A stretch of DNA of 63,630 bases, filler included. It is 11 parts of 11 records of this genome, joined end to end, with 100 filler letters (N's around TTAATTAATTAA, not from the genome) between each part and the next. Parts side by side here need not be neighbours in the genome. Positions count along the whole stretch, not along the records: positions 27,567 to 34,902 come from SRR7504441_12545; 10 more parts are not named here. One strand, written 5' to 3'. The position numbers were made by a program, and so were the translations under genes. Below, one piece after another: positions 8,076 to 59,678 of this stretch (position 1 is the stretch's first letter; each line of letters starts with the position of its first letter). The notes beneath the pieces are model-generated. The model was given only the letters and a program-made list of their open reading frames with translations, made no database searches and was not told where the DNA came from.

Positions 8076-10994
8076 ATGGAGCGGACGTTCGTGCTTATGA
8101 TGATGGCCAGCACCGCCACAGCGAAGATCTGGCAGAACGAGCTGTACGGCCACGACATGATCCTCGAGTCCCGCGAAGCCTATGACATCCGGCCGTTCAT
8201 CTCGGGCTTTGGGGATACTCCTGGCGAGCCGGTGACCGTGACGTTCGCTGGCGGGTCATACCCCACAACCGTGGGCAGCGACGGGCGTTGGGAGGTGCAG
8301 ATGAATTGCTGTGACAAGCTGACCAACCAAACCCTCTCAGTGGCCACCGCGTCCGGCACGCCTCTCGAGTACTCGAACGTGGCCTGCGGCCAGGTCTATG
8401 TGTGCAGTGGGCAGAGCAACAGTGAGTGCCCGATAGGGTCGCGATAGGTCGCTGACCGGTGGTGTGGCAGTGGGACTGCCGCTGTCGTATGTGGACGGCG
8501 GCCAGGCGGAGATCGCCAGGGCCGATCGCCCCAATTGGCGACTCTTTACAGTCCCGCGTGCCACGGCGGCGACACCGCAAGACAGCATGCCCAATGCCAC
8601 AGGCTGGCAGGTCAGCTCTCCTGCCACCGCCGCGCCGTTCTCGGCTGTGTGCTATCTGACGGCTAAGCACATTGCGGAGATGTACTGGGGGGACGCTCCG
8701 ATCGGACTGATTTGGAGTGCATGGGGTGGCACAAGGGTCGAGGCTTGGGCCCCTTCGGCTGTGAAGCCACTGTGCGGTCCTAAGGGTCCCGATCCGTACC
8801 GGCAGCAGCAGGCCTACGCGGCGCTGTACAACGCTATGATCCACCCACTCACACGATATTCGATCCGGGGTGCGCTGTGGTTTCAGGGCGAGCATAACGT
8901 AAGCGTGGGGTTTGAGCTAGAGATGACCCTGAACTTTGTCAGGTGGTGACGCATAGCTCGCGGGAGGAGTACGCCTGCACCTTTGGGCAGATGATTAACT
9001 CGTGGAGAGATGCTTGGCAAGGCATCGGAGACTTTCCTTTTCTATGGGCGCAGCTGGCTCCGTATACTGGGTACGCTAACCAGTTCGCTGGGCGAGGCGA
9101 TATAAGCACCATCCGGCTGGCCCAGGCCGATGCGCTACCGCACATTGGACTCGACTCGACTGGGATGGCAGTAACTATCGACCTCGGCGATCCGGCCGCA
9201 CCGGCAGGGGATGTGCACTCGCGTGTTAAGGACCCAGTCGCATACAGGCTGGCGCTGCAAGCGATGCACGTGGCATATGCGTTCCAGGAAGGCGAAAGCG
9301 TGGTCAACCACGACCACCCGGAGCTCACCCCCCATCCGTTTGCGCTGTACTTTTCAGGGCCGGTTGTACGGGAGGTCAGTCTTGTAAAAGGGAGCGTGAG
9401 GATCAGGTTTTTGCACGGGGATGGGCTTTACTTGAATGGCACTATGGGGTGTGAGGTTCACCGCGGAGTGGGCTTTGACGGCGGTGTGATTGGCGGAGAG
9501 TGTTGTCGAGCAAGGGACACTTTCCAGCTTTGCACTGGGGACATCCGCAACACATCGCAGTTGACATGTGTCAATGCAAGCGATGCTCATATCCAGGGCG
9601 ATCAAATCACGCTCGCTCTGCCAGACCAAGCTGTGCTGCCAACGTCCGTCCGCCATGCTTACAGCAACTACCCGCAGTGCGCGCTCTATAACAAACACGC
9701 CCTGCCTGCCTCTCCATTTGTGCAAGCTCTGCCTGTGAGGGATCAGGGTCCTGGTGGCAGCCGTGGGGACTCGGTCGCACCCGCAGTCACCCCGCCGCTA
9801 GGAGTGAATACTTGGAACTCATTCCACTGCAATGTCGACGAGCGCAAGATCCGTGACATGGCACAGGCACTCGTGGACACTGGGTTGCGGGAGGCGGGAT
9901 ACGGTATTTAGATACAGTTACGGCTGAGTCTCTAACTGAGCCCTGTGTGCCAGAATACGTCAACATAGACGACTGCTGGCAAGTGATGCGGTCCCCGAAC
10001 GGTTCAATCAACGCAGATCCGGTGCGGTTCCCCGGAGGCATCAAAGCATTGGCCGATGACGTGCACAGCCTTGGTCTGAAGTTTGGCGTTTACAGCGCCC
10101 AGCGCGAGTTCACATGCCAACGGCGGCCTGGAAGCTGGCTCCATGAGGCAGTCGACGTCCAAAGCTACTGTGAATGGGGAGTGGACTACATCAAGCTGGA
10201 TGCATGCGCTGGGCGGGGGTATGCCCAGAACAACATTAGCTGGATCAAGTTCTCGAATGCCATCGCAGACTGCAGCCGTACCCGAGGGTTCCCGATGGTG
10301 CTCAGTGTGGAGAGCTGTGACGACCCCGACAGCTGTGGCCAGTGGATTGGCAAGCTAGCCAACCTGTGGCGTACAGGGGGCGACATCCAGGCGACATTCT
10401 CATCAATCATGAATAACGTGGCGACGAATACTCGGATGGCAAGCTTGGCCGGCCCGTCCGGTGGCCCGTTGGGGGGCGGGCATTGGAACGATGCGGACAT
10501 GCTTCAAGTGCCCGGGCTGGCTGGCCGATTGGCTGACTTGCCTTGTGCTGCAGGTGGGCGATATTGGGCTGAGCTTGACTGAGCAACGGACGCAGTTCGG
10601 CCTGTGGGCTCTGATGGCTTCGCCGCTATTGATTGGGTCCGATGTGAGCATGCTTTCAAACGAGTCACTGGCCATTTTGGGTAACAAAGAGGTGACCGCC
10701 ATCAACCAAGACAGTCTGGGCAAGCAAGGCATTCCAGTTGGCCCAAACGCGACCGACCCCACGACAGCACCATGTTGGGCCAAGCCACTGGCTGGTGGCA
10801 CCGTAGCGGCCATCCTTCTCAATGTCGCAGATGAACCTAAACGAATCAGTTGCACGCTGCAGGATCTGGGACTCGAGACTGTAACGTCTGCTCGAGATTT
10901 GTGGCTTCATCGAGACCTTGGGCTCCCGCAGGATGGTGTGATCACCGCACTGGTCCAATCGCACGACTCGCTTTTCGTCAAGCTCACTCCATGA
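8076..10994 (+). CDS. Secreted sialate-O-acetylesterase-like (SASA/SGNH) domain fused to a GH27 alpha-galactosidase; 4 introns
   Basis: CSGQSN|M, GGTRVEAW, LWFQGE, D.H..K for the esterase. TPPLGVNTWN, YVNIDDCW, YIKLDAC, WRTGGD, WNDADML for GH27. The two domains share one exon ORF (8943-9911). Confidence 0.85.
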
Positions 10995-23759: not shown

Positions 23760-23859
23760 NNNNNNNNNNNNNNNNNNNNNNNNNNNNNNNNNNNNNNNNN
23801 NNNTTAATTAATTAANNNNNNNNNNNNNNNNNNNNNNNNNNNNNNNNNNNNNNNNNNNN

Positions 23860-26800
23860 CAGCCAGCCAGCGAACGACGGATTGACCACGCACGTGCTAG
23901 TGGCTGTGGCGGCGTGCATCTACACCCTGGCGGCCACACAAGGGGTGTTCCTTCAGAGCAGCACGGCGTTTTCGGAAGGACTTGCTGCAAAGGGTGGCCT
24001 GACAGCTGTTGATGGCATCAACGTCGTTGAGGTACCGGTGACTCAGAAATCAGGGGACACGACAGTAGACAGCGGCCTCGTCACCACCGTCGCCTGCTCT
24101 GTTATTTGCACTGTACTGCTTGTCCTGGTCGTGGCTGGAGCTGTACATCTGCTCTGCAAGGAGGAGAAGGGCGAGGAGGAGAAGGTGGGGCCCAGACAAC
24201 TCCCCCAGGTGCGGCTTGATGACGATCTTGTGTCCTTGGTGGACATGTCCCAGGCCAATTGCAGCTGTGCTGGCAGTAGCTCAGCCAAACAAGTATGTGC
24301 TGGAAGGCCCCTGCGGTGTGTGCCGGCAAGCACTGCGATGATGATGTTTTCCACGCTGCTGATCGTCAATGCAGCTGCCGCATCTCCAAATCTACCTGTT
24401 CAACGCCATATCGGTCGCTGGAGCGCGCCGCCAGCTCTTGTGCCGACAACAGGTCTTTTCGATTCACCTATCATAGGGAACGGTGACGTGGGAATGACGT
24501 TTGGCGGCCCGCCGAACCACACCACGTTTTGGATTGCTTCAAACTCGTTCTGGTCGGCAAATCAGAAAGTGGACGAGCGACCTAATAATAGGGACTGGGG
24601 TGTGCCTCATACACAACTTCGTATTGGCGATGTGCAGCTCATTGTGCCCTCGTTGATAGGTGCCGAATACAGTGCCTCTCAGGACCTGTACCGCGCAACG
24701 ATTAACGCCACATACACCTCAGCAACGTGCCGGCTACGACACAGCAGCATTGTAACCCGCAATCACATGCTCCAAACACAGCTGGAGGTCTCGGGGACAG
24801 CTTGTGGGAATGCGACCGTCCAACTGATGGCTGGTCGTGGGTATCCTCAGTCCTTTGGCCCGACCACTGCTGGCGTGAAGGGCGACAGACTATACATCAC
24901 GCGAGAGTCGGTCAGCACAAGGCACAACACCATTACAGCCGCTCCGTGTTTCAATGGAGGGCAGCAGATCAACTCTCAGCGTTGGAAAAACCAAAGCACG
25001 GTGCTCACCCTCGCCGATGGTCGGTGCATCTTCTCTGTCTCTGTCGATGGTCGACCGAAATTGAGTATTGGGGCCTGTGCAAGTGGTGATGCCTGGGCTC
25101 TTGTGCCTATGGAGCCATCTGGTGGACCTGGATTTGTGCTGAAGCATCAGTCGTCATCAGGTAGATGCGCAACGCTTGATGCCAATAATGAGTTTCTGGT
25201 AGAGGTCGAGTGTGCAACAGCCACTGCACTGTGGCTTTATGACCATAGCTCAGGCCATGTATATGTACAGAATTTGGAGTATGGATGGGGAAAGGGGAGG
25301 TGCCTGACTGCGGTGGAGCCCAATCCGTTGGTGGTTGCAGCGATCGCCCTCCAGATGCTGGACATTCATGGTCTGCCTTTGGAATTGCAGGGGCAGAGTG
25401 ACCATGTGCAGCACAGCTCCTTCAATTTAAATTTGGACGCGCTCGGTGGCACTGCTACCATCATGGCTGCAGTGTTGACTAAAGGCGATTGCACGGGTTG
25501 TGACCCCAACGTGACCAATATGTTGGATTCTGCGTTTGTCTTACTGGACCAGCATCAAGGTAGCGGCTCGACCGCTCTCACAGAGCCACATGCGATGTGG
25601 TGGGAGGAATACTGGCAAGCTGGTGCCAAACTGGACCTCGGATCAGACTGGGAGCAACTGGAAGGTTTCTACTACGGAATGCATTACCAAATTGGCAGTG
25701 CATCCAGACCGAATCGATTCGCACCTGGATTATGGGGGCCATGGCTGACTGCCGAGAGTTCTGAGTGGGCTGGCGACTACACATTAAATTACAACTTCGA
25801 GGCGAACTTCTACGGGGTCTTCTCTGACAATAGACCTGAGTTGGCCGAGCCCTATTTCAGAACTATCCTCAACCACGTCGATCTCGGACGATGGCGTGCC
25901 TCAATGCCAAGGTGGGGCGGAGGCGCGATCTTATCGACGCCCGGTTTCTGGGCACAGGATTTTAATCTAATGAGTGCGGTCTCAACAGATGGCTCAGGCT
26001 TTGTTGGCGCTGGTTATGGTGGCATTGAGCTTCCAGTGCACTTGTCTCCCTGGAAACATTTCTACTTTGCGAGTGACTACGGGCAGAAGAGCATAGGTGC
26101 TTTCTCAACAAAGCCCTTTATGGACTACTACGATTACACAGGAAACAAGACCTTTCTGAAGGAGGTTTTGTACCCTCTGGTTCTCTTGAATTCTGAATTC
26201 TACAGCTCGTATATGATCAAAATTAACAGCAAATACAACGTCATGCACTCATGCGCGATGGAGTGTTGTTCGGCCCAGGGAAATCTCACAGAGAACGACA
26301 TCCGGGTGTCCAATAACCCACCATTTGATCTTGCGTTTGTGAAGCGGACCTTCCGGGAGCTACTTTCCTATTCGGAGATTCTGGATACAAATGCTGATAA
26401 GCGACCGCAATGGCGTCACATCCTTGATAACTTGGCAGATTATCCACTCACCAAAGACGAGGAAGGACACTCTGTGTATGCACAGGCGACTTTGAACACA
26501 GGACCAACCTCCACTGTTACAGACGGATTCCCAAATGCCTCAAAGTGCGTTTGGTTGCAGGGGCGTAAGGATACATCAGAATGTGGCAACGCTCGTTATC
26601 CTATCGCTTACTTTAATGCTATGCATCCAGGCGAGGACATCGACCTTGCCAGCGACTCTACTGCACTGCGAATCGCACGTCGGACCACCGCTGTAGTGAA
26701 TGGGATCAATGACTATTCTCCAACGAACGGCCTATGTATGGCCTGGCCTGCGTCTGCGAGGGTGGTCAGTAAGACAGAAGACCTCCTCCAGCACTTTGAC

Positions 26801-27235
26801 TTGGCTCTGAATCATACTATCATGCCAAATTTCATGCCTTTCATCATGAACCGCCCTACTGGCGGTCCAGGCGCCAGCATGGAGAACTCTGGTGCCACAG
26901 TTGCTGTGAATGATCTCATGGCCTCTGTGCATGGCCATGGGGCGAATGCTTCCCTCATCATCTTCCCAGGGGGTTGGCCTGCAGGGAAGCTGGTTAGCTT
27001 CCGTGACGTGCGTGTGCGTGGCGCCTTCACTGTGTCAGCCACAGCACGCGGTACTGGCCATGGAGTGACCTTGATTGGGCCGGCTGTGATCACATCGTTG
27101 GTTGGAAACCCATTGGCACTATCTTGGCCTGCAACTCCGACTGTGGAAAAGGGAGGTGTGCCTGTAGATGTAACGCAGTACGGTGATACATTCCATTTCC
27201 AGACCACAATGGGGAGCACTTACACGGTACAGTGA
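23860..27235 (+). CDS. GH95-like glycoside hydrolase (alpha-L-fucosidase-like) with a ricin-B-like insertion; true start may be 24338
   Basis: PIIGNGDVG; W..YW; APGLWGPW; WAGDYTLNYNFEANFYG; FRDVRVRGAFTVSA C-terminus; Cys/Trp lectin-like segment (SQRW, GRC, CLTA); single 1117-codon ORF. Confidence 0.75.
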
Positions 27236-27566: not shown

Positions 27567-29165
27567 GACAAGGTGCGTCCCCGGCTGAGAGGAAGAAACC
27601 GAATGGCTGGGCAGGACGGGGAGCCGGCGCTGCATGAGGCAGCCTACAACGGGCACACCGAGGCGGTGGAGCTGCTGCTGGATGCCAAGGCCGATGTGAA
27701 TGCCAAGAACAAGGTGCGCTGCCCGCCCGGCTGGGAGGGAGCGAGTGGCTGGGGGGCTGAGCGCGAGGGGGCGACTGGGCAGGACGGGTACACGGCGCTG
27801 CATTGGGCAGCTGGCGAAGAGCACACCACTCACCAACAACACACTGCCATGTTGGAGACGCTCCTGGAGGCCAAGGCTGACATAGATGCCAAGAGCATCA
27901 AGGTGAGCCGGGCTGGGAGAAAGTGCCCACCTGAGAGAGGGACGGCTGGCTGGGCAGGATGGATGGACAGCGCTGCATCTGGCAGCTCAAGCAGCAGGGA
28001 CTCGCACAAGACAGACTGCGACGACTGAGCTGCTTCTGACGGCCAGGGCCGACATGCATGCTAAGGACAAGGTGGGCGCGCTACTGCCTGTGGGCGGCCA
28101 CTGAGACTGGGCGGTGAAGGCCGGGGAGACGCCGCTCCAGCTGGCCGAGAAGTGCAAACATGTAACGACCGCCGCTGTACTGAGTGCGGTGAGCTGCCAG
28201 CCGCGGCTGCCTCAACTAGAACTGTGCAGGCTGCCCAGCCACAGGCAAATGGTTCCTCAGCGGACACCCAGCGGGTCAATTCTGCCTCAACCTCACACAA
28301 AAAGCCAGCTGACTCAAAGAAGCGCAAGGCACCAGCCACTGGAGATGCTAAACGAAGCAAGAAACCCAAACCCGGACAGGTAGATACCTACACCACGCCT
28401 AGTGACGGCTGTGGGGGGCAGAACCAGACCTCAAGGGGTCAACAAGGAGCATCGGCAGAGGGTGATCCGCCCAAAGGCCAGATTCCAAAGTTTCCAAAGC
28501 CCCCTTCTGGCACACCACCTCAAGACTTGTTCGATTTGTTGCTGAACATCATCGAGACTCAACCCAGTAGTACACGTAAAGGCAACCTGCTAGAGGAAGT
28601 CGCAGAGTTATATTTCTTGCAAGATCAGACTGTGAAGGAGGTACATCTTGTTGGCGCTAGCCTCAGAGACAAGAAGGATTTTGGCCTTGCTCCCCGGGAC
28701 GCTTTAAAACATGGTGACGGCGGCCAAGATCTTATTGTTGAAAGGAGCAAAGGGAGCACAGGGAAGATATCAGCCCTCTTTGGTGACTTTGTTGAGGTTG
28801 TTGATTGCAAGGCCTATTTTGGTCACACAAAGGTCCACAGCAAAGACATTCGTAGCCTGATTGGTGCAATGCACTGCATCAAGTCCGAGCACAACCCCCG
28901 GTTGGCCACCCTCTTGACAACTGCGAGCAGCCCATTGACTGACTGTGCTCAAGCCCATGTGGCCCAATACAACAATAATGACTCAGACCACAGAATCCGC
29001 GTCATCAATGGTAACGAGTTTAAGAGAGATATGGTGAACGGTCGCCCACCAAACACAAATGGCTACCTTGATGACACAGGCTTCCAAAAGGAGCTGATGA
29101 AGATCCTTGAAAAGATTCGTGAAGCTGCATCTGGCGAGAAGTACACTTATGTCAAGTGGAAGTGA
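27567..29165 (+). CDS. Ankyrin repeats + basic NLS-like linker + Mrr_cat-like PD-(D/E)xK nuclease domain (5' truncated)
   Basis: Ankyrin exons DGEPALHEAA, DGYTALHWAA, DGWTALHLAA, AGETPLQLA. Intron 28189-28229 joins them to the ORF carrying KGNLLEE, GDGGQDLIV, VVDCKAY, KDIRSLIG, LLTTASSPLT..A, IRVING. Confidence 0.7.
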
Positions 29166-29574
29166 GCTGAAATATGACTCGCTGCTCACATCATCATGAA
29201 TTTATGATGGCACTCATGTACTATGCCCCATGGCCACGTGATTTACTAGTGAGTTACAAATATGACAGGTCCATAATATGTACACACGGTGAACTGAAGC
29301 CAATGTTACATGCAACTATACTCCTGCTTAATTTTCAATAAAGATTCGTTGTCAGTGTACAAGTCATACAGTGTACAGTTGTAACAATTATGGCGCGTGT
29401 ACATATGCTTGATGACATTGTATGTAGTTGTATGCACCATGTTCTGAATCATTTCCTCAAACTTCTATTATGATTAGTAGACTCATTAATTTGATTAAAG
29501 ATGATTAGTACACCGTACTGTACTCATAGGCAAGGAGTGAGCAAGACTCGTTAATTAAGATGATTAAAAGATGA

Positions 29575-32500
29575 TTAACACAACAGGTGCGGTAGAGCTG
29601 CCTCGATGCCCGACCAGGCGGTCGCCTCAAGCGCTCGGCGAGCTTCTGGCTCTCCAAAGCCCATTGCCATGCATTGCTCCACCATTTGCTGCTTAAACAT
29701 TATTGCCTTTGTAGCCTGCACAGCTTCCTCTGCTTCACGAGCCTCCTCTTCTTGCGCTTTCTTTGCCCGGCGCTTCTGTGCTTTGCTCATTTTCTGGGCA
29801 GGTGGCTTCTGCCCGCTTAGATCTACACATGCAGTTGTATTAGCGGCGACGTGCTCCTCAGTAGCAGCAGTTGCGAGCAGGTAGTCCAGTGCTGCCTCTG
29901 AGCTTACCCAGCCAGTGACTGTGAGGGCTTTACGAGCAGCGTCCTCTCCAAAGCCCATCTCCATGCATCGCTGGACCATTTGGGTCTTAATAAGCTGATG
30001 CTCTGCGGCCTCTTCCGCTTCACGAGCCTCCTCTTCTTGCGCCTTCTTTGCCCGGCGCTTTTGAGCTTTGCTCATTTTTGGTGGTTGTTGCGCAGCACTT
30101 ACATGCTCCAGCGAGGTACTGGGCTGATTCTCTTCCACATCCTGACGAGTCTCTTGCTGTGAGCTCTGCTCAGAAATCCACTTACGCAACTTTAGTCTGG
30201 GGCCTTTTTTCAGCCCAAGCTCCTGCAAGTCTTTGTCACTCATGTCGACTAATCTGCGGTGATCAATCTGATGCTCCCGAAACACCTCGTGAAGATGCTC
30301 CAATCCGATTGATCCCAGCAAAGCAGACAGGTGTTCATCTCCCTCCTCCGATTGAATTTCGCTCTGTGCATCTGCCCCATGGTCAGAGTCTTGCTCCTCC
30401 GACGGCTCTGCGATCGGTTCGGTCTGCTGTTGCTTCTTCTTCTTTTTCTTCTTGGAGCCTGCAGTCGTTACAGGCGTCTCTTGCTGCGCTGGTAGGCCGA
30501 GGAGCAGAACGCCAGGATTGTCCGGGTCCTCCATGCATGTCACACCAGACACATTGCTCAGCTCCTGAAGCACAGCATGCTTGATACGAGCGTCGCCACC
30601 GGAGTGTCGACCCCAGCCACAGATCAACTCCACAATGCCGCCTGAGCCGCCCCTATGCATACCGACTGTGGACTGAGCACACGCCACAGCTTGGGCAACG
30701 GTGAGTCCGTGCAAGTCGATCTCCTCAAGGATGTTACGTGACTCGTTTCTGGCCTGAAATGCCAGGTCCCCAGCCTGCTCACTCGCCAGCCGTGCCAGCC
30801 TGCTCTCCTCTTGAGCCAGCTCTGTCAGGCCTTGGGCAAGTACAGGATCCGCCTGGCTGTGGCTAGCAGAATGTGCAGTGCTTCGGAGAGCCTGGCTTTC
30901 TTCCCGGTGTTGCTGAGCTTGATTGTGCAGCCGATTGCTCTCCAGAATGGCCCCGAGATTGGGTGCCCGTTGTAACCGATCTGTTGACTGCGCCACCCTG
31001 GACCGAGCCCTGGCAAGATTACTCTCTACAATCTCCGTAATCACGTTGCCCTCGTCAGCTTCAGCAGGAGCCGCATCAAACCTGCTTTGCTGGGCATGAT
31101 AGAGAAACTTGCCATGTGCGTCGACATACTGGTAGATCTCCATCCAAATTCGGCATTTGCTGTTCAAGGTACTGGCTGAGCCAACAATGTGTAGCTCGCA
31201 CTGAGCTCTCGATAGGGCCACATTAACGCGTTGCCACTGAGAGGTGAAGCCTAGTACACTCTCTTTGTTAGCACGTACTGTGCTGAGCATGACAACAGCA
31301 GCCTCGGTGCCTTGTGCAGCATCCACGGTTCCAATGGAGAGCAAAGGATCAAACGGAGCTGTCCTTGCAGGGTCAAGATTCTCAGCTTCGCCTGGCTGCC
31401 GAGCTTCAGGGAACAGCTTGGTCAAAAGGTCTGACTGAGCCTTATACATGGCAATGATGTGTATGGCTCGCGGTGGCCCTGCGCGTTCCCTCTCTTGGGA
31501 ATACAGCTGCCTACACACTTGAGCTTCGCGCAGATTCTGCCAGGACCTGCCCCCAGGACCTGGCTGTTCGAGGCCATCGCCAGCTATTTCAAAGTCGTGC
31601 CAGAACAGACAGCACTGTTGCCTAGCTGCTCCGTTCATTGTCCCAGTCGGGTCCACTCTCTTCCTCAACTCAGCGATTTCCCTGTCTGTCTTTAATGGAA
31701 CACCTTTGGGTGCGTAGAACACTTTGGATATCATCCCACAGATGGCAGGGTGCAGCCTGTACTGGAGGTCCAGTTTCCTAAAGCTCCTGCCTTGGGCGAT
31801 GCACCTCTCCATCAAGGACCGGTTGACGCCTGCCACTTTGAGCTGCTTAGACATGCTCGAAGGAGGCAGCTGGAAATGATCTCCGACAAGAATAATGTTC
31901 ACTGGATTCAGCCGAAGCAAGAGCGGGATCGCTGGCTCACTAGTCGCTCCAGCTTCGTCTATTATGACGGTATGGGCATCTCTGCCGGACAGCTCAGTGT
32001 GGATTCTGCTGGTGCAAGCAATCGTGCACAAGATCACTCGGGCATTGACCACTAGCTGCCTCTGGGCTCTGAGCTTCTCAACGCGTAGCCTGTTTCCAAT
32101 TTCCTTCTCCAGCATCTGAAACTGGTCCCGCAGATGGTACCAAGCAGCCCAGCGGGCCCGTACACTTGCACGCCAGAGCCGATCTGCGATGCGCCGACAA
32201 GCCTGAATACAAACATCTCAGGCAAGGCAATTCACGGGTCACACCTCTCTTTGCTGGCCCTGTCTCCTCCTAGACGAGAAACTTTCGGGCGTGGCCTTCT
32301 CTTGATACGATCTGCGGTATTGGATACCAGACGTGCTCGTGTTGGCCATTACGTTGCCCCACCACACCTGGAGCGACTCGATCTGTTCCTCGTCCAACTG
32401 TGACGGTGCTGCTGCTTGAGGTGTCGAATACACCATATCTTCCTCCTCATCGGTTCCGGCTTGTTCGTCAGCAAATCCCGAACCGAATATGTCATCATAC

Positions 32501-34035
32501 AAGCCCATATCATTGCATGCCTGGACGCTCTCTGACGGCTCCATCCGCGACTGGTATCGGCAAGCCCAATCATATCTCGCATCGCAGCTCTCCCATGTGA
32601 CTATCATGTTCACCAGCAGCGAGTGGCAATGCTGGATTGCATCTAGAAACCTGAGCCAAAAGCACACTTTCGGGTCGCTCTCGACTTGCATCGGGATTGT
32701 GAAAGGCAAAGCCGCAGCAGCCACTCTCTGAACATTCCCCAGCACCACCAACGGAGACTGCTGATGGTACGGCTTGAGCTTTGAAGCGACGTTGCCGATC
32801 GCCTCGTTGCAGACACTCGTGATCACCGTCACCTTATCTGCTGGAACCTTTGAACGGAGGATGTGCAGGATCATAGCTGACTTGCCAGTGCCAGGCGGGC
32901 CTTGGATGATCTCCAGATTAGTCTCCAAGCCCTCAACCGCCTCCCTCTGTGGCTGATTGATCGGCGCGTACCCAAACTCCGGTGATATGTAGGTCTGGAT
33001 CTCGCGGCCAGCAAAGTCGCCTCGCTCCACGTGCGACGGATCGACCAGGGTCTGCAGAACAGCCGGGGCAGGAGCTTGGCTAGTTAGGAGCCGTTCGATG
33101 GTCTGGTGCTGGTGGACCAAGTTGCCCACGTAACCGATCAGTTCAACTCTCGGGTTAGTCTTGCCCGTCACCATCTCCGGGACAACCAAGAGCTCTGTGG
33201 AGATTTCACGAGGCGCCTCGCCATCGAGCCAGCGGGTGTATTTCACTTGGCTGGCTATCCCGCCCTCCTTGAGGGCCTTCACGGTATCCTGGACGTACCG
33301 GCTAGACACCTCCACGAAGAACAGCTTCATCAGCGGCCGCCGGCGATTCCCTCGGCGTCTGGCTCTCCCCCCGCCCTTCCCCTTGCCCTTCCCCTTGCCC
33401 TCGGCCCGCCTATCCTCGCGCTCTGTGATATTGAACGGAGTCTCGCCTGTTGCCTGCGATATGAAGGCCAGGAGTGCATCCTTGCTCCTGTGGCTCGCGT
33501 GCACCCCGACCAGCATGAGAACTTGGCTCCGCCGCTCGCAGCTGCTCACCACCATGTGGTACCGCCCGTCCACCTTCAGCAAGGTCTCATTCCAGCCGGC
33601 CCGGGCGTGCCCGCCCCGGTGGAAGTCCTCGTTCCCCCAGTGGTCCAGCGCCAATCCTGTCGGGCTCTCCCGGGTGGCCTGGAGCTCGATCGCCGGCTGG
33701 CTGGTGGACTCGGAGAGCATGTGCCAGAAGTCTGCGAGATTGTTCTGGCGCATCACGGACAAGTAGTGCTCGGCCGACTCGAACGCGAGCGGGACCGTAG
33801 CGTACTCGGTTGGCTGCGGGTTGACGAATATGTCATACAGGCCGGGCTCGTTCGAGACTTGCTGGCGGGCCATCCGGTCGGAGTCTTCCCGGCACGAGGT
33901 GCGGCAGACCGGGCACCAGGTCTTTTGGCGGAGCCATTCCTCGATGCACTTGGTATGAAACGTGTGCGCGCAGGGCAGGCTCACCGCCTCATCGATGATG
34001 GGCTCCAGGCAGATCACACAGGCGCCCTCCGCCAT
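29575..34035 (-). CDS. RING-H2 + SF1B (UPF1/DNA2-NAM7-like) helicase + Smr + SAM + two UBA domains (about 1470 aa)
   Basis: CVICLE...LPCAHTFH..CI..W....WCPVCR; QGPPGTGKS, IIDEAG, GDHFQLPP, QYRLHP, TVDAAQG, RVNVALSRA; IDLHGL..ICGWGRHS..NPG; LLGSIGLEH..F..H.ID..L.ELGL..GPR; two MGF..AL motifs. GT-AG intron 32203-32244 joins the two ORFs in frame. Confidence 0.88.
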
Positions 34036-34140
34036 GTTCTCCACCCGGGCCGAGGTCTCACGCGACCAAAGTTACGTTTTACGAGCTATTCTACAGCTCG
34101 CCAGCTCTGTAAATCATGTACCCCGGCCGTTGTAGGGTAT

Positions 34141-34186: not shown

Positions 34187-34902
34187 CTAAATCACTCGGC
34201 GGCTCGCAGGATCAGCGCGCCGCGAGACTTGCCCGACCCGCCGTCCTGCAGCAGCACCGCCGGCCACAACCGGTCCAGGCTCGCCCACAGCGGCTCGGTG
34301 TGCGGCCACGTGTCCATGATCAGGAACGAGTCGCTCGCCTGTAAATAACCCGACTAAGCACTGATCGAGAAACGGATAAATCACCTCGTCGTAGGCAGCT
34401 ACCGGTGAGAAATGCCCCCCAAATGGCTCCTGCGTCCCCCTATCGTCAGCAATTAATCTGTAAACAAGTATTAACCTGGCCTAGCGTGCTCATATGGTAG
34501 TTCAGCAGCACCTGCCCCGCCCATATTAACACACCAAAACTCGAATCTCGCAGCCACCCGCGACCGAGGCTCCCCCAGCGCTGACACCACAGCCTCCCGG
34601 AAAGCTGCCTGAGCCCCGCCCTCGCCCCCGCCGCTGCTGAACGCCCGCACCGGCCCGGCGAGCTCCTCGGCCAGCAGCACTGTGCACCCGCCCAGCCCAG
34701 TCACCTACAAAACATCAGCAGCTACAGTAACCAGCAAAGAGACTACCGTTCCGCAAAGCTCTGCCAGCTGCCCTAGCGTCATCCCCACCGCATCCACTGC
34801 CACGCCCCATCAACCCGCTCGCCACCCGGCCCCGCACCCTCCCCGGTCAGCGCCGCCAGCGCTGGAGCTGACATCCGGCTGGCAGCCAGCACGTCCTCCT
34901 CA
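34187..34902 (-). CDS. Hypothetical protein, 3' portion (5' truncated)
   Basis: Coding-like minus-strand segments separated by GT-AG-like stretches; no family recognised. Confidence 0.35.
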
Positions 34903-35249
34903 NNNNNNNNNNNNNNNNNNNNNNNNNNNNNNNNNNNNNNNNNNNNTTAATTAATTAANNNNNNNNNNNNNNNNNNNNNNNNNNNNNNNNNNNNNNNNNN
35001 NNTACTGACATCTTTGCGTGGAAACTTGGTTTCGGTTCGGGACCCCGAGCGTCCTGTGATCCAGCCCGTATAACCACCGCTCAGGGTCACATCGAGGCGT
35101 AATCGAGTCGCCCTTGATTTTCAGGTCGCACGCAGGTCGGCGCCGTGTATCATTATCATACTGCCGAGGTGCGCATTACTGTGGACCGAATTTAATCGGG
35201 CCCGGGGTTCTTAGAGATAAATTAATTAAGCGCCCACCCAGATCTATCA

Positions 35250-49411: not shown

Positions 49412-50923
49412 CTAGATTGGATATTCAAACTTTGCCAGATCGCACGGCCCCGGCGCAAACCCTGCAAACTCAAGCCCGGTAGGCCGCCCAAAGCCGCTGA
49501 GCACTGTAAAGCGCAGCCCCGAGGCTTGAACAGTGGAGTCTAGCAAGTCAATCCTGTTGGCACCGACCGTTGTGCCGGAAGAGACTTTGACCCAGTTGCC
49601 AGAGACGTTGGCCTCCACCCGGTACTCCGCGATCATCTGGCCGCAGCTCTGATCCTCGCGCATTCGGACTCGGTCGATTGGACTGGCCGAAAACTCGAGC
49701 TCAACAGAGAGCTCGCCAGGCTTGATTGAGCCTGAGCCTACAGCTGTGTCGTAGCACGAGCGGATCCAGTCGCCGAACTGGGCGTACGCCATCGCGTGCT
49801 TTGGGTCGACCCCGCCGGTCCGGTCGATTGCGAAGTCGATTTCCAGGTGGCCGTTGGCCCCGATGGAGTTGTGGTACATCTCCACCAGCGTGCTCAGCGG
49901 ATTGAGCGAGTCTCCCGGGGTGTAGAACCAGTGATCGCCGGCCTGCAAAGTAACGTCCACGCCAGACGGGTACCAGCTCGCCCCAGTAGCATTGGGCGGC
50001 GCCCCAGCCCCAGAGCCCGACGGGCACCAACCACAGGCGGCCGTGCTCCACACAGCGCCTCCCGGCCCGCGCTCCGGCAATCCGCTCTCGGTGCCACACC
50101 AACGGACCGGGCTGTCGCTCACCCCACCGCCGTTGAAAGCCACCGCGTCCCGGGCGTTGGTCCGTCGAACTAGCGCCCCGACCTTGTCACACATGGCGCC
50201 GCAGCCGCCATCGAGCCATATCTCAGTCAGGTTGCCGAAGTCGGTCCAGAGCTCCGTAACCTGCGCCAGTGCCAGCGCCTCGAACTCGGCCTGGCTCACC
50301 GGGGCCTGGCCGGGCAGCGCACTGGCTGGGCCGTTGGCCTTGTGCCCGGCCACGTTGAGGTAGAAGTTATTGGTTAAGGAGTAGTAGAAGCCGTGACCGA
50401 TCTCGGCGGCGGTGGTGGCGGCCACAAACTGCTCGAGCACGTTCAAATGGGCCGGCACGTGGTAACGGTACGGGGACCCGTCGGGCAGGGTTGTTTTGGT
50501 CTGCCAGGCCAGGAAACCGCAGCCGTGCTTGGCCGTGAGCACCGCCGAGCTTGCCCCGAGGGCCTTGAACGACTGGACCCAGCTGGAGACGTTGAGGTTG
50601 GTCGGATTGAACGAGCCCACGTCGCTGCTGTTGCACCGGTCGCTGTTCGGGTCACAGCCGTTCCAGTTGTGCTTGTCGCACCCGGGGTCGCCGTCGTGGA
50701 AGAAGGTGGCCATCCCGAAGTGAATGAGCGCCGAGATCGAGCCCTGGTAGGCCAGCTGCTGCCGGGTCGGCACCGGGAGCGGCCCCGCGTGCGGCAGGAG
50801 CGTAAAACCGCCGGCGGCAGCAGTTGCACTGGCACTGCCAACATGGGCAGCCACCAAGAGCGCCACGACTCCCAGCTGTCCTCGCAACCGAGTACTCCAG
50901 CTCGGCCTCGCCGGCCTCGCCAT
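49412..50923 (-). CDS. GH29 alpha-L-fucosidase (secreted, intronless) with a C-terminal F5/8-like beta domain
   Basis: ALIHFGMATF; FNPTNLN..W; VLTAKHGCGFLAW; EIWLDG; WFY; YHNSIGANG. Confidence 0.9.
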   Translation of the reverse strand: MARPARPSWSTRLRGQLGVVALLVAAHVGSASATAAAGGFTLLPHAGPLPVPTRQQLAYQGSISALIHFGMATFFHDGDPGCDKHNWNGCDPNSDRCNSSDVGSFNPTNLNVSSWVQSFKALGASSAVLTAKHGCGFLAWQTKTTLPDGSPYRYHVPAHLNVLEQFVAATTAAEIGHGFYYSLTNNFYLNVAGHKANGPASALPGQAPVSQAEFEALALAQVTELWTDFGNLTEIWLDGGCGAMCDKVGALVRRTNARDAVAFNGGGVSDSPVRWCGTESGLPERGPGGAVWSTAACGWCPSGSGAGAPPNATGASWYPSGVDVTLQAGDHWFYTPGDSLNPLSTLVEMYHNSIGANGHLEIDFAIDRTGGVDPKHAMAYAQFGDWIRSCYDTAVGSGSIKPGELSVELEFSASPIDRVRMREDQSCGQMIAEYRVEANVSGNWVKVSSGTTVGANRIDLLDSTVQASGLRFTVLSGFGRPTGLEFAGFAPGPCDLAKFEYPI

Positions 50924-50975
50924 TGGCTGTCCGTTGGCTGTCCGTTGACAACATACAGTAGGCTCGCACGCAACA

Positions 50976-51469
50976 ATGTGAGGCGACAGGTCGGGGCGCG
51001 GCTCACTCGGTGGGCAGGTCGGCAGATCTGGTGTGGCAATTGGTGCGTAACAACTCGGCGTTCATCCACAAGCGGCGTTGCGGGAGCAACCTCCAGCTGT
51101 TGAACTCGGAGCCGGGCAACCTGACCAACCTCAACCGGTACAAGGACAGCGGCCTCGCCAACAACACCGCCGTCGGCTTGACCGCCGATGCCAAGCAGGG
51201 CGTGGTGCTGAGCCTGAAGAACGCCAAGCGGATCAGGCAGATCAAGAAGAACGCCCCCGGTGTCAAGATGTCCGGCTCGTTCCGCAAGGTCGCCAAGGCC
51301 ATCAAGAAGGCCACAAAGGACTCCTTCTACCGTAGCGACCTCTCCAAGCCGGCCCTCGCTCGCTGGTGCGCGGGCGGTGGCTTGGGCAGGTGGCTGAGTG
51401 GCTGGTGACAGGTACAAGATCTGGAAGAGCCAGGAGGCCTACCACAAGAAGCCCAAGTCCGACGAATAA
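50976..51469 (+). CDS. RPL28: 60S ribosomal protein eL28; introns 50978-51017 (inside the ATG) and 51366-51411
   Basis: MSADLVWQLVRNNSAF...EPGNLTNLNRYKDSGLAN...YRSDL..PALAR. Confidence 0.93.
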
Positions 51470-53936: not shown

Positions 53937-55081
53937 TTAGCCCGGGGCCATGATATCTGGCTCGTTTGGCTTGATAGTTTGACTCGCGTCGCTCCTCGCA
54001 CCGTCACTCACGCGCCGCGGCAATGGCCGGTGTAGCTCTCCCGGATTCCGATGTGACATGCCCGGTGGAACTTCGGTTGCTGTCGTTGTCTCCACCTTGA
54101 CGGCGTGATGCACATCCTGGAAACACGCCCAATTAGTGCACAATCATATAAACAAGCAGCAACAGCCACCTTCTTGGGGCTCTGATCTGGGGGGCGGGTG
54201 TTCTCCAACGACGCGATTTTGAGCAGCATGTTGTTCATTTGCATGTTGTTTGTGTGCCTAGTGTCTGCTGGCTCAGAAGAATCAGGACGCGGCCGCTTCC
54301 CAAGCACAGCTTTCGGCCCCTCCTGGCCCGCGGGCTTCGGATCTGCCGGCCCAGTGTAAGCAGCACTCCGTGTAGGCGGCGCGCCTGCTTGGACCACCGT
54401 CGAGAGGAAGGCCATGATCTTCTCCACTGTGCTTTGCGTCTGCTGCTGCAGGCATCTGGCCTCATGCAACTCATTCAGGGTAGCCGCCAGCGTTCTATGC
54501 ATCGAGTCCTTCTCGTCCCGCAGGTTGTTCATCTTACTGGCCATTTCTAAGAACTGGTGCTGCTCCTGCCAGGGCGTCCCCGCCCACTGCTGCTCCACAC
54601 GGGCTACCCCCCAAACGGCCAACTGCTGGTCATTGGGCAGGCCCATCGGACCCGAACAAAATGGATGCGTTACTGGGTACTCCGCAGGTTGCAGCTGGCC
54701 CTCTTGCCCGCCGGCAGCCGGTTTAGGGGCCGACCGTCGCCGGTGGATCTGGCCAAGTAGCTCTGGCTGGCCGCGGCGGAAGCAATCGTTGGAAAACTCC
54801 CAGGCGTCGGCGGCGATTTTACGGAAGCCGTAGATGTTGAGCTGCCGGACGAAGGAGGAAAGGTTGTTGTGCTTGAAGTACTGCGGGAGCACCGCCACCG
54901 CGAACTGACCTGGGTCGGAGACGAGGAACGAGCAAGGACCCGACCAGCGGACGCACTCGTCGATGGTAGAGTCGTCGACCATTGTGAAGGTCTTGCTAAG
55001 GAACGGCGCGACCACCTTGGCGCTCGCAAGCGGCGCCATCCCCGGCTTGAAGGTCACTGGCGGCATCGAGGCCTCATTCAT
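53937..55081 (-). CDS. HSF: Heat shock transcription factor (HSF DNA-binding domain + coiled coil)
   Basis: [13 protein letters not shown]...VRWS..SF.V.D..QF...[25 protein letters not shown]...WEF.N..FRRG. Confidence 0.92.
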
Positions 55082-55714
55082 GGACAGCCGCTGGCCTTCG
55101 CGAACTCCCGTCTGGTGCACGACTCTATCTCGGCCTTCTGGAAAACAACGGAAAGTACCGGCAAAGTCGACCCGGGGGTGGTCACCGGGAAGATGAGCCG
55201 GGCGGACATGACCGCTAGGCCGGCCGGCGGGGCGGGTGGCAGCAGGGGGGGCAACCTCATCGCCCGGCAGGAAGCGTGCGGCCGCGTGCTGACGCTCCAC
55301 GCTCGGCTGCGGTCTGAGGCCGGACGGAGCGAGGACCTGGCCCGTGCGCAGCGGCGTGCGGTCGACGCGGCGCGGGAGGCGCGGTTTCGGGAGCAGGTCC
55401 GAGGGATCCACGCCGGGAGCGGAGTGCAGCTCGCGCGGCTGGACTGGGCGGCAGAACGAGCGAGGAAGACAGCCGCAGCCGAGCGGATATGAGTCTGTTG
55501 GACGGGAGCGTCTGGGTAGGACGGCGGCGAAGGAGAGGCGCCGCGGCTGCGGCTGGGAGGGGTGGCGGGTGGATTGGCTGACGAATTGAGCGGCGTATTG
55601 ACTATTGGAGCAGGACGAGCGTGGCTCAACGCTTGCAAGAGAAAGATAAACTGAGCAATAATAGTTAGATAGAGCATTGTAGTATATCGCGGTCGTCCAC
55701 ATTAAAAGGTTAAA

Positions 55715-59424: not shown

Positions 59425-59678
59425 CGGTCGGAGATGGCCTGCAAACTTGCAGCCGTTGGGACCTGCCGCCGTGTCCGAGGCTTCTAAGCGAGGCTTGCCG
59501 CACGTGCCTGGTGAGTGCCCGTCTCTGGCCCGCCGGGTGCTAGCCGCCAATTTCTCCTGCCCCGGCTGTGCCGCGCACTCGACCCTCTCTGATGATGTTC
59601 CCCCCATCCCGCCACTCGCTTCCACATGTCGGCGTCGTGCGCCTGGGCCTGACGCACGCATGCTGGTGGCAGGCAGCC

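What the first reader, a model, noticed from the sequence alone, without database searches (positions are those of the whole stretch)
29575..34035. All-in-one RNA surveillance protein: RING E3 + UPF1-like helicase + Smr nuclease + SAM + 2 UBA
Seen: a single 42-nt intron (32203-32244) joins RING-H2 (about 33900-34020), a full SF1B helicase motif set, Smr (about 30500-30725, IDLHG...GWGRHS), SAM (about 30170-30335) and a recently duplicated KMSKAQKRRAKKAQEEEAREAEEA+UBA unit. Established: in no-go decay a RING ligase (Hel2/ZNF598) marks collided ribosomes and a ubiquitin-binding Smr protein (Cue2/NONU-1) cuts the mRNA; ZNFX1 couples a UPF1-like helicase to an E3 in antiviral defence. Inference: writer, reader, motor and nuclease are fused into one polypeptide for ribosome quality control or antiviral RNA cleavage. 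I do not recognise this architecture.
Basis: partly seen in the sequence, partly recalled or inferred. Interest (0 to 1): 0.78.

Follow-up and report, generated by a model that had tools for sequence, protein, structure and literature searches.

The report
Ubiquitin ligase, helicase, Smr nuclease fusion
One gene of an uncultured marine protist joins a ubiquitin-ligase finger, an RNA-helicase-type motor, a small Smr RNA-cutting domain and two ubiquitin-binding domains, parts that other organisms keep as separate proteins for clearing jammed ribosomes or foreign RNA; the fusion is real and I found no description of it, but its function is only inferred.

Summary
On the minus strand, ORFs 34035-32245 and 32202-29578 are joined by a frame-keeping 42-nt GT-AG intron into a 1472-aa protein. 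Its parts are RING-H2, a UPF1-1B-like region, a complete Upf1-like SF1B helicase, a charged linker, an Smr domain with DxH and GxG motifs, SAM, and two UBA units. The helicase's Pfam AAA_11 model is split across the intron, so both ORFs belong to one gene. No RNA evidence was available.

Relatives exist only as fragments (44-66% identity) from marine metagenomes and one transcriptome. They show helicase-Smr in one ORF and Smr-UBA-SAM-UBA in another. RING linkage was seen only here.

The helicase lies in a protist clade separate from the UPF1 and ZNFX1-like rows. Other clade members carry RNA modules (TUTase, CCCH fingers, RGG-like tails). The Smr profile matches human N4BP2.

The "recent duplication" is only partly right. 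The two UBA units are old; only a 24-aa head is identical.

Three literature searches found no helicase-Smr fusion; RING/UIM-Smr fusions are in print. The most likely role is ubiquitin-coupled RNA surveillance, which is inferred and untested. I rate it a new variant of a known kind, of moderate interest.

The parts
29575..34035 (-). Whole gene model: ATG at 34035, exon 1 to 32245, intron, exon 2 from 32202 to 29578, TAA stop at 29577-29575; 1472 aa
   Evidence: 23 of 36 substitutions in near-identical metagenome contigs are synonymous in this frame, and the two indels seen (3 nt and 9 nt) keep the frame.
33901..34023 (-). RING-H2 finger (aa 5-45): C6, C9, C22, H24, H27, C30, C41, C44
   Evidence: Pfam zf-RING_2 E 2.6e-12, 47.2 bits. 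Best PDB sequence matches are synoviolin, RNF8 and AMFR RINGs, E 3e-9 to 2e-8. Ligand pattern read.
32971..33870 (-). N-terminal accessory region of the helicase (aa 56-355), co-linear with the UPF1 stalk/1B region, with an insert of about 80-100 aa that contains GKGKGKGKGGGRARRRGNRRR
   Evidence: phmmer finds it in P0211 (2.6e-71) and in 7 paralogue-level helicases out of 213 stored proteins. Alignment A5. Local hhalign against a UPF1-clade alignment is co-linear, window aa 19-580 to P0079 164-667.
31174..32961 (-). Upf1-like SF1B helicase core (aa 359-940), motifs I-VI, interrupted by the intron and by an acidic insert (aa about 470-597)
   Evidence: Pfam AAA_11 and AAA_12. Best PDB match is UPF1 2xzo, E 1.8e-29. 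Junction alignment. Tree.
32203..32244 (-). 42-nt GT-AG intron with two in-frame TGA codons
   Evidence: The AAA_11 model continues across it. A homology-supported 46-nt GT-AG intron lies in another gene of the same window. Not seen in RNA.
30721..31113 (-). Charged, helix-rich linker (aa 961-1091), running into an N-terminal extension of the Smr domain
   Evidence: Conserved in P0052, P0055, P0202 and P0203. Alignment A1. The nearest Atlas clusters carry DUF1771 plus Smr, scores 0.76-0.82, which is a lead only.
30490..30720 (-). Smr domain (aa 1092-1168): IDLHG (DxH) and GWGRHS (GxG)
   Evidence: Pfam Smr E 0.029. Profile A1 hits N4BP2 Smr 3fau, 2vkc and 2d9i at E 6e-7 to 1e-6, and MutS2 2zqe at 0.1. 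Motif definitions come from passages of 10.1101/674358 and PMC10897456.
30181..30336 (-). SAM domain (aa 1220-1271)
   Evidence: Pfam SAM_1 E 3.1e-7. PDB matches are tankyrase, ANKS3/6 and BICC1 SAM domains, E 6e-6 to 7e-3.
29863..30078 (-). Unit 1: 24-aa basic-then-acidic head KMSKAQKRRAKKAQEEEAREAEEA plus UBA
   Evidence: Pfam UBA and UBA_7. Repeat D1. Codon comparison.
29578..29793 (-). Unit 2: identical 24-aa head plus a second, diverged UBA; C-terminus of the protein

Best explanation
This is one real nuclear gene of a marine protist. It encodes a 1472-aa enzyme built around a Upf1-like SF1B helicase of a protist-specific clade. That clade's usual RGG-like N-terminus has been replaced by a RING-H2 finger, and a NONU-1/N4BP2-type Smr domain, a SAM domain and two UBA domains have been added at the C-terminus.

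The most likely role is ubiquitin-coupled RNA surveillance on stalled or collided ribosomes, or on other aberrant mRNPs. All steps below are inferred:
1. The RING recruits an E2 and ubiquitinates a nearby target or the protein itself.
2. The UBA pair holds the enzyme on the ubiquitinated particle.
3. The helicase translocates 5'-to-3' on the mRNA and remodels the particle.
4. The Smr domain, with DxH and GxG intact, cuts the RNA.
5. SAM may add self-association.

What is shown: the gene structure, the domains and their motifs, and the conservation of helicase-Smr and Smr-UBA-SAM-UBA in relatives. What is inferred: the substrate, the order of events and every activity.
For: One gene:
- RING, the accessory region and the first helicase half share one 610-codon ORF.
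- The AAA_11 model is split 2-114 / 162-257 over the two ORFs.
- Exon 2 starts with sequence that aligns to contiguous paralogue sequence.
- 23 of 36 strain-level substitutions are synonymous, and both indels are multiples of 3.
- A 46-nt intron in the same window is supported by homology.

Conservation:
- P0203 (492 aa) carries the second helicase half, the linker and a whole Smr in one ORF.
- P0052 (520 aa, 52% identity) carries Smr-UBA-SAM-UBA.
- P0211, a Trinity transcript, covers aa 89-482 at 51% identity.

Smr type:
- The profile hits N4BP2 Smr at E 6e-7, against MutS2 at 0.1.
- DxH and GxG are present; these motifs are tied to cleavage and RNA binding in passages of 10.1101/674358 and PMC10897456.

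RNA context:
- The window plus P0203 sit in a 33-row clade (SH-aLRT 100) whose members include helicases fused to a Cid1-type TUTase (P0224), to CCCH fingers (P0001) and to UBA (P0060, P0063).
- Paralogue N-termini are RGG/KG-rich.

Precedents:
- Cue2 combines ubiquitin-binding domains (three CUE, one UBA) with Smr and depends on the E3 Hel2 and the helicase Slh1 (PMC9841427 passages).
- NONU-1 homologues fused to RING, UIM and UBL are reported (10.1101/674358 passage).
Against: - No RNA evidence for the splice or for expression in this organism.
- RING linkage is seen only in this window. The one transcript relative (P0211) starts at aa 89, so it cannot show it.
- The Smr falls below Pfam's gathering score as a single sequence.
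- Smr domains can act as collision sensors without cutting, as in B. subtilis MutS2 (PMC10897456), and N4BP2/MutS2 Smr domains also nick DNA in vitro (recalled).
- SF1B helicases include DNA enzymes: DNA2, IGHMBP2 and SEN1 all match at E 1e-17 to 1e-20.
- The known collision helicase is Ski2-like, not SF1B (PMC9841427).
- Separation from UPF1 is only borderline by the AU test (p 0.044, with the group named after seeing the tree).
- The basic stretches could be nuclear localisation signals.
- No structure model could be made.
Confidence: 0.4

Rival explanations
1. An antiviral or anti-selfish-RNA restriction factor that works like ZNFX1. RNA binding by the helicase switches on the RING. Ubiquitin chains are read by the protein's own UBAs, and with SAM this clusters the enzyme on foreign RNA, which the Smr then cuts.
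For: - ZNFX1 is an SF1 RNA helicase with E3 activity. Its K63 chains drive aggregation and RNA entrapment (abstract of 10.1101/2025.09.05.674436; search listing).
- The SAM is most like polymer-forming SAMs of tankyrase, ANKS3/6 and BICC1.
- The family is narrow, and its domain order differs between relatives: Smr-SAM-UBA-UBA here against Smr-UBA-SAM-UBA in P0052.
- Lineage-specific, fast-changing Smr proteins have been read as conflict effectors (10.1101/674358 passage).
Against: - The helicase is not in the ZNFX1-like group of the tree, and there are no NFX1-type fingers or ZNFX1 domain.
- There is no sign of copy-number expansion or other conflict signatures here. No genome is held, so this could not be checked.
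- Strain variants in the helicase are mostly synonymous.
Confidence: 0.2
2. A ribosome-splitting factor of the MutS2 type. The Smr serves mainly as a sensor or anchor for the collided-ribosome interface, and the ATPase motor does the rescue, with little or no mRNA cleavage.
For: B. subtilis MutS2 joins an ATPase to KOW and SMR domains that recruit it to collisions, and it splits ribosomes without cutting mRNA. SMR domains are described there as conserved collision sensors (PMC10897456 title, abstract and passages).
Against: That paper links loss of cutting to loss of DxH (DLR in MutS2). Here DxH is intact in the window, P0052 and P0203. The GxG-adjacent Arg is present in the window and P0052 but is Leu in P0203.
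Confidence: 0.15
3. A DNA-directed enzyme for repair, replication-fork or R-loop processing. It would be an SF1B DNA or DNA/RNA helicase with an Smr nicking nuclease, using RING and UBA for ubiquitin signalling on chromatin.
For: - PDB matches include DNA2, IGHMBP2 and SEN1.
- Smr domains of MutS2 and N4BP2 nick DNA in vitro (recalled).
- RING-plus-helicase proteins act in DNA damage tolerance, for example Rad5 and HLTF, which are SF2 (recalled).
- There are Lys/Arg-rich stretches that could be nuclear localisation signals.
Against: The closest helicase relatives carry RNA modules (TUTase, CCCH, RGG-like). The best solved match is UPF1. The Smr is of the N4BP2/NONU-1 eukaryotic type, with DUF1771-like clusters nearest.
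Confidence: 0.15
4. A gene-model or assembly artefact: two neighbouring genes (RING plus half a helicase, and half a helicase plus Smr-SAM-UBA), or a chimeric contig.
For: No RNA across the junction. No metagenome contig covers 32137-32780. The roughly 130 aa before the intron have no homologue support.
Against: Neither half would be a working helicase on its own. The AAA_11 model continues across the junction in the right order. The intron is GT-AG, frame-keeping and of the size found elsewhere in the window. The orthologue P0203 links the second helicase half to Smr, and P0211 links the accessory region to the first half.
Confidence: 0.05

Closest known systems
Cue2 (yeast) / NONU-1 (C. elegans) / N4BP2 (human): ubiquitin-binding Smr endonucleases of no-go and non-stop decay
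   Same: An Smr domain with DxH and GxG follows a charged helical extension, and UBA-fold ubiquitin-binding domains are in the same chain. The profile of this Smr hits N4BP2 Smr structures. RING, UIM and UBL fusions of NONU-1 homologues are in print (10.1101/674358).
   Different: Here the Smr is appended to a complete SF1B helicase, a partner not named in that paper's text (its figure S3C could not be seen). The ubiquitin readers are UBA rather than CUE and sit C-terminal to the Smr. There is an added SAM and no PNK domain.
ZNFX1: Upf1-like SF1 RNA helicase with built-in E3 ligase activity
   Same: A motor of the same superfamily and a ubiquitin-ligase module are in one chain. The function proposed for ZNFX1 on RNA is coupled to ubiquitin-driven self-association (abstract of 10.1101/2025.09.05.674436).
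   Different: The ZNFX1 E3 is a cryptic RING-like/NFX1-type module, whereas here it is a canonical RING-H2. ZNFX1 has no Smr, UBA or SAM. The helicases lie in different groups of the tree, and the PDB match to ZNFX1 is weak (E 7e-11 against 2e-29 for UPF1).
UPF1 (NMD helicase)
   Same: UPF1 is the best solved sequence match. All helicase motifs are shared, and the N-terminal accessory region is co-linear with the UPF1 stalk/1B region. A zinc-binding module sits N-terminal to the helicase in both; UPF1's CH domain is called RING-like in reviews (search listing only).
   Different: There is no UPF1_Zn_bind (CH) domain. The two form separate clades; holding them together costs 68 lnL units, p-AU 0.044. 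UPF1 recruits its endonuclease SMG6 in trans (recalled), whereas here a nuclease-type domain is in cis.
B. subtilis MutS2 (and E. coli SmrB)
   Same: An ATPase motor is fused to an Smr domain that recognises collided ribosomes (PMC10897456). This is the only described motor-Smr fusion that I found.
   Different: The MutS2 motor is a MutS/ABC-type ATPase dimer with KOW, not an SF1B helicase. Its Smr has DLR and does not cut. It is bacterial or plastid, and no ubiquitin is involved.
Hel2/ZNF598 plus the RQT complex (Slh1/ASCC3, Cue3/ASCC2, Rqt4)
   Same: The same four activities in principle, namely RING E3, ubiquitin reader, RNA helicase and (with Cue2) Smr nuclease, are here in one chain (PMC9841427 passages).
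   Different: These are separate proteins. The helicase is Ski2-like SF2 (3'-to-5'), not Upf1-like SF1B. No sequence relationship was found beyond the generic RING, UBA-fold and Smr.
HELZ2 and DNA2: Upf1-like helicases fused to a nuclease
   Same: Both are precedents for an SF1B helicase and a nuclease in one polypeptide (HELZ2: title and abstract start of PMC10516660; DNA2: PDB names).
   Different: The nuclease domains differ: RNB exoribonuclease in HELZ2 and a PD-(D/E)xK nuclease in DNA2 (the latter recalled). Neither has RING, UBA or SAM.

Membership tests
Upf1-like SF1B helicases (Pfam AAA_11 + AAA_12) | Both RecA-like halves with motifs I, Ia, II (DExx), III (GDxxQLPP), IV (QYRMHP), V and VI | tested here: met
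   AAA_11 (30.2 + 51.5 bits over two exons) and AAA_12 (136 bits). Motifs read. Near-invariant columns of 100 helicases fall on these motifs.
Upf1-like SF1B helicases | Accessory 1B barrel/stalk N-terminal to RecA1 | tested here: inconclusive
   hhalign is co-linear with the UPF1 stalk/1B region, but the score is carried by the helicase core. No structure model was possible.
UPF1 orthologues | CH domain (UPF1_Zn_bind) and placement inside the UPF1 clade | tested here: not met
   No UPF1_Zn_bind hit. The UPF1 rows form their own clade (SH-aLRT 97), and the window lies in another (100). AU test p 0.044, which is borderline.
ZNFX1 family | NFX1-type zinc fingers / ZNFX1 domain and helicase kinship | tested here: not met
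   No such Pfam hit at E 0.1 or better. The ZNFX1-like row P0070 groups elsewhere. The PDB match to 9q9z is only E 6.7e-11.
RING-H2 E3 ligases | C3H2C3 ligand set with canonical spacing | tested here: met
   C6-x2-C9-x12-C22-x-H24-x2-H27-x2-C30-x10-C41-x2-C44. zf-RING_2 47.2 bits and zf-rbx1 36.6 bits. 101 PDB sequences matched at E 0.1 or better; in the 60 shown, all but the two NAM7 helicase rows are RING or E3 proteins matching aa 3-58.
RING-H2 E3 ligases | E2-dependent ubiquitin transfer | not testable with these tools
   Needs an in vitro ubiquitination assay.
Smr domain, NONU-1/Cue2/N4BP2 type | Smr (IF3-C-like) domain recognisable by profile | tested here: met
   Profile A1 hits 3fau, 2vkc and 2d9i at E 6e-7 to 1e-6. 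As a single sequence it reaches only 15 bits against Pfam's 25.7 cut-off.
Smr domain, NONU-1/Cue2/N4BP2 type | DxH and GxG motifs linked to cleavage and RNA binding | tested here: met
   D1093-L-H1095 and G1126-W-G1128. DLH is invariant in the window, P0052 and P0203.
Smr domain, NONU-1/Cue2/N4BP2 type | Endonucleolytic cleavage of mRNA at stalled ribosomes | not testable with these tools
   Needs biochemistry or genetics.
UBA domains | Pfam UBA above threshold; MGF loop | tested here: met
   UBA 54.9 bits with two stretches, and UBA_7 54.2 bits. MGFGE is present in both copies. Ubiquitin binding itself was not tested.
SAM domains | Pfam SAM_1/SAM_2 above threshold | tested here: met
   SAM_1 31.1 bits (cut-off 23) and SAM_2 26.5 bits (cut-off 20.5). 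Polymer formation was not tested.

The most novel reading that the evidence does not exclude
A self-contained 'mark, hold, pull and cut' machine for stalled translation or foreign RNA. It would be a eukaryotic protein in which the E3 writer, the ubiquitin readers, the motor and the Smr nuclease act in cis. A 5'-to-3' SF1B helicase would take the place that the Ski2-like RQT helicase holds in yeast and animals. SAM/UBA/ubiquitin self-association might concentrate it on its target, as proposed for ZNFX1. If so, the fusion is a Rosetta stone linking Upf1-like helicases to the Smr/ubiquitin branch of RNA surveillance.
Probability: 0.2. Interest if true: 0.75.

Novelty: new variant of a known kind. 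Interest (0 to 1): 0.5.

Why it matters
Fusions of proteins that elsewhere act as separate partners are strong hints of functional coupling. This one puts an E3-type RING, two ubiquitin readers, an Upf1-like motor and a Cue2/NONU-1-type Smr domain on one chain.

- It predicts that Upf1-like helicases can work directly with Smr nucleases under ubiquitin control. In model organisms that link is only known through separate proteins and a different helicase family.
- It offers a compact single-protein system for testing how ubiquitin marking, motor activity and RNA cleavage are ordered.
- It shows that a protist-wide helicase clade, with members in Diplonema, Picozoa and Pyramimonas, is a platform for RNA-processing add-ons: TUTase, CCCH fingers, UBA and Smr.

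The limits are plain. The organism is uncultured, all function is inferred, and such lineage-specific fusions are common in this genome according to earlier notes of this scan.

Tried and rejected
- **RNA evidence.** The look-up of sequencing runs listed no RNA holder. Laying four DNA-type runs gave only short, low-depth contigs, no joints, and nothing over 32137-32780, so the splice stays untested.
- **Whole genome.** None is held, so paralogue counts and copy number could not be checked.
- **Related loci.** The first metagenome scan, with the exon-1/P0211 alignment, found no relative among 85 pattern matches. The second, with the Smr alignment, gave 3 loci. L001 is the short contig of P0054. 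L003 is a spurious 35-aa match in bacterial DNA, seen in its ORFs. L002 has the same short match and was not inspected.
- **Word-index protein searches.** The exon 2 search gave only helicase-level hits (51 at E 1e-3 or better). The exon 1 region 1-358 search gave P0211 plus two unrelated RING proteins. The Smr region search gave only P0052.
- **ESM Atlas.** No cluster shows this architecture. The scores of 0.76-0.87 are leads only.
- **Structure prediction.** There is therefore no fold check of the accessory region, the Smr or the inter-domain packing.
- **Protein comparison.** It failed internally on A5 against A6, so the same comparison was run with hhalign in a script.
- **Tree.** 8 labelled references, including the MOV10-like P0011, DNA2-like P0010, DUF6469-type P0089 and bacterial P0029, were dropped because under 250 residues of the query were covered. 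Those families are therefore not placed.
- **Earlier findings of the scan.** Nothing lies near this place, nothing matches by sequence, and nothing matches the words 'Smr helicase RING UBA'. 'Smr helicase' returned only unrelated prokaryotic items.
- **First alignment for folding (A3).** It misaligned P0211 (21% identity against 51% pairwise) and was replaced by A4.

Full report
**Gene structure**

Two long minus-strand ORFs abut: 32239-34071 (610 codons) and 29575-32217 (880 codons).
- The first ATG of the upstream ORF is at 34035, 12 codons after an in-frame stop.
- The sequence between the ORFs reads GAG|GTGTGA...TATTCAG|GCT. That is a 42-nt GT-AG interval (32244-32203) with two in-frame TGA codons. 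Removing it keeps the frame.
- The spliced product is 1472 aa and ends at a TAA (29577-29575), followed by an AT-rich flank of GC 0.34.

**Domains**

- Pfam finds a RING finger at aa 5-45 (zf-RING_2, 47 bits). The helicase N-terminal family AAA_11 is split: model positions 2-114 fall in exon 1 and 162-257 in exon 2.
- It also finds AAA_12 (136 bits), SAM_1 (31 bits) and two UBA stretches (55 bits). The Smr match is weak (15 bits, E 0.029, below the 25.7 cut-off).
- The eight RING-H2 ligands and all helicase motifs can be read directly: GPPGTGKS, DEAG, GDHFQLPP, QYRLHP, TVDAAQGTE, RVNVALSRA.
- The Smr call was settled with a profile. Aligned with two orthologue fragments (A1), the region hits the three solved N4BP2 Smr structures at E 6e-7 to 1e-6, and Thermus MutS2 Smr at 0.1.
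- It carries IDLHG (DxH) and GWG (GxG). Passages of the NONU-1 preprint and of the MutS2 paper tie these motifs to cleavage and RNA binding.

**Is it one gene?**

- RING, the accessory region and the first half of the helicase lie in a single ORF, so that fusion needs no splice.
- The second join is supported in several ways. A helicase domain model continues across it in the right order. Exon 2 opens with sequence (RRIADRLWRASVRARW...) that aligns to contiguous sequence of paralogues.
- Mini-introns are real in this window. The Melibiase_2 domain of an alpha-galactosidase is split over ORFs 9857-10579 and 10413-10991. The join that best matches an intronless paralogue is a 46-nt GT-AG intron, 10508-10553.
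- Earlier notes of this scan on the same genome also report 36-55-nt introns. These are unchecked notes, tested here only through that one case.
- Near-identical DNA contigs from four seawater and estuary runs cover parts of both exons. Of the 36 listed substitutions, 23 are synonymous and 23 fall on third codon positions. The two indels are 3 and 9 nt.
- What is missing is RNA. No RNA run was listed, and no contig crosses the intron.
- The roughly 130 residues before the intron (an acidic insert, aa about 470-597) have no homologue support and a lower GC3 of 0.59, so a further small intron there cannot be excluded.

**Relatives**

- An exhaustive HMMER search with exon 2 found 14,684 proteins at E 1e-3 or better, almost all through the helicase. 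Only 19 reached 1e-30.
- The five best hits are fragments of orthologues at 44-66% identity, from marine metagenome contigs.
  - P0052 (520 aa) is Smr-UBA-SAM-UBA, with a domain order unlike the window's Smr-SAM-UBA-UBA.
  - P0203 (492 aa, same 90% cluster as P0054) holds helicase motifs III-VI, the linker and a whole Smr in one ORF.
- A Trinity transcript from EukProt (P0211) matches aa 89-482 at 51% identity. Its two ends look adapter-derived (my recollection of such translations), so it says nothing about the RING.
- Among the 213 proteins stored, the Smr piece matched 4, from two 90% clusters. The SAM and each UBA unit matched 2. The RING matched only 2 unrelated RING proteins.
- So helicase-Smr and Smr-UBA-SAM-UBA are conserved in at least two other lineages. 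RING linkage is shown only here.

**The helicase clade**

- The region aa 56-355 is not an orphan domain. phmmer finds it in P0211 and in 7 paralogue-level helicases, with a shared motif vP..F.S...Y....N.LAEFWH.
- A local hhalign against a UPF1-clade alignment is co-linear from window aa 19 to 580. It places this motif and what follows on UPF1's stalk/1B region, with an extra 80-100 residues in the window that include GKGKGKGKGGGRARRRGNRRR. This equivalence is suggestive, not proven, because the score is carried by the helicase core.
- In a quick IQ-TREE (LG+G4, 76 rows, 328 columns of the second helicase half), the window pairs with P0203 (SH-aLRT 98). The pair sits in a 33-row clade (100, branch length 0.45) with all helicases that carry this N-terminal region.
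- The UPF1 rows (12, support 97) and a ZNFX1-like row are outside that clade. Forcing the window pair into the UPF1 clade costs 68 lnL units (p-AU 0.044, borderline, and the group was named after seeing the tree).
- Eight labelled references (MOV10-like, DNA2-like and others) had to be dropped for short coverage, so the clade is not placed against those families.
- Named members come from Diplonema papillatum, Picozoa SAG25 and Pyramimonas parkeae.
- Other members carry a Cid1-type nucleotidyltransferase (P0224), CCCH fingers (P0001) or UBA domains (P0060, P0063). Paralogue N-termini are RGG/KG-rich where the window has its RING.
- This company points to RNA.

**The UBA units**

- The repeat finder shows one 71-nt direct repeat (29723-29793 and 30008-30078, 92% identity, 285 nt apart).
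- Codon by codon, the 24-aa head KMSKAQKRRAKKAQEEEAREAEEA is identical in both units, with 7 synonymous and no non-synonymous differences.
- The UBA bodies are 23 of 43 identical, no closer than to the two units of P0052 (19-22 of 43-46).
- The duplication therefore predates the split from P0052's organism. Only the head has been homogenised or is under very strong constraint. What this conserved basic-then-acidic head does is unknown.

**Mechanism**

- Established knowledge supplies the parts list. In yeast, Hel2 (a RING E3) marks collided ribosomes. The RQT complex uses the helicase Slh1 and the ubiquitin reader Cue3. Cue2, with three CUE domains, one UBA and Smr, cuts the mRNA (PMC9841427 passages).
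- NONU-1 homologues fused to RING, UIM, UBL, CCCH, PWI and 2H domains are reported (10.1101/674358 passage). A helicase partner is not mentioned in that text; its figure S3C could not be seen.
- In B. subtilis, the ATPase MutS2 is recruited to collisions by its KOW and SMR domains and splits ribosomes without cutting. Its SMR has DLR instead of DxH (PMC10897456).
- ZNFX1 couples an SF1 RNA helicase to E3 activity, with ubiquitin-driven aggregation and RNA entrapment (abstract).
- My best reading (0.4) is a ubiquitin-coupled RNA surveillance enzyme in which RING, UBAs, helicase and Smr act in cis on stalled ribosomes or aberrant mRNPs.
- The rivals are a ZNFX1-like restriction factor (0.2), a MutS2-like splitting factor whose Smr mainly anchors (0.15), a DNA-directed role (0.15) and a gene-model artefact (0.05).
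- None of the activities was or could be tested here.

**Novelty**

- Three full-text searches found no paper describing a helicase-Smr fusion: 'Smr domain' + 'UPF1-like' + RING (83 papers with at least two terms); 'Smr domain' + 'helicase domain' + fused (4 papers); Smr + 'UBA domain' + helicase + 'no-go decay' (26 papers with at least three terms).
- The Atlas of large protein clusters shows none either.
- This is not proof of absence. I saw only the top 150 of 14,684 helicase hits, the subscription literature is not covered, and the supplement and figures of the NONU-1 paper were not visible.
- Each part and most pairings are known: RING-Smr, ubiquitin-binder-Smr, helicase-E3, helicase-nuclease and motor-Smr in bacteria. 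What is new is the combination on an SF1B helicase.
- I rate it a new variant of a known kind, interest 0.5.

Noticed in passing
window 28065-29165 (+): The convergent neighbour is a 366-codon ORF with a Lys/Ser-rich N-terminal half and a Mrr_cat restriction-endonuclease-like domain (PF04471, E 1.3e-5). There is no sequence match in the PDB. An Mrr-type nuclease in a protist nuclear contig is unusual.
   Followed up: partly
window 10508-10553 (+) and 32203-32244 (-): A homology-supported 46-nt GT-AG intron splits the Melibiase_2 domain of an alpha-galactosidase gene. It shares the 8-mer TTGCCTTG and a CTGA element with the 42-nt intron of the helicase gene. This may be a common intron motif or copied introns; earlier notes on this genome report near-identical 44-nt introns.
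   Followed up: partly
window 29498-29577 (-): TAATCATCTT occurs three times exactly, starting at the stop codon of the gene (29568-77, 29557-66, 29498-507). The whole window has 6 matches at up to 1 mismatch against 1.44 expected, and 0 of 100 shuffles reach 6. It is a possible 3'-UTR or polyadenylation element.
   Followed up: partly
window 29578-34035 (-): There is a steep 5'-to-3' GC3 gradient along the coding sequence, from 0.87-0.88 in the first 200 codons to about 0.5 in the last 300, while GC1 and GC2 stay flat.
   Followed up: no
window 9857-10991 (+), 23816-27235 (+), 49415-51061 (-), 58120-59802 (-): Four glycosidase genes lie in one 63-kb window: two alpha-galactosidases (Melibiase_2), a GH95-like gene and an alpha-L-fucosidase. 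This suggests a gene neighbourhood for degrading fucose- and galactose-rich glycans.
   Followed up: no
proteins P0224, P0001, P0060, P0063 (relatives, not in the window): Helicases of the same clade are fused to a Cid1-type terminal nucleotidyltransferase (P0224, 1348 aa), to CCCH zinc fingers (P0001) or to UBA domains. The clade therefore looks like a modular RNA-processing platform in protists.
   Followed up: partly
window about 34900-34960: A run of N (an assembly gap) lies about 0.9 kb upstream of the gene's start codon. It shows up as a run of X in two ORF translations.
   Followed up: no
window 54011-55714 (-) and 62507-63607 (-): An HSF-type DNA-binding protein and an ABC1 atypical kinase gene were annotated by Pfam during the survey of the surroundings.
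   Followed up: no
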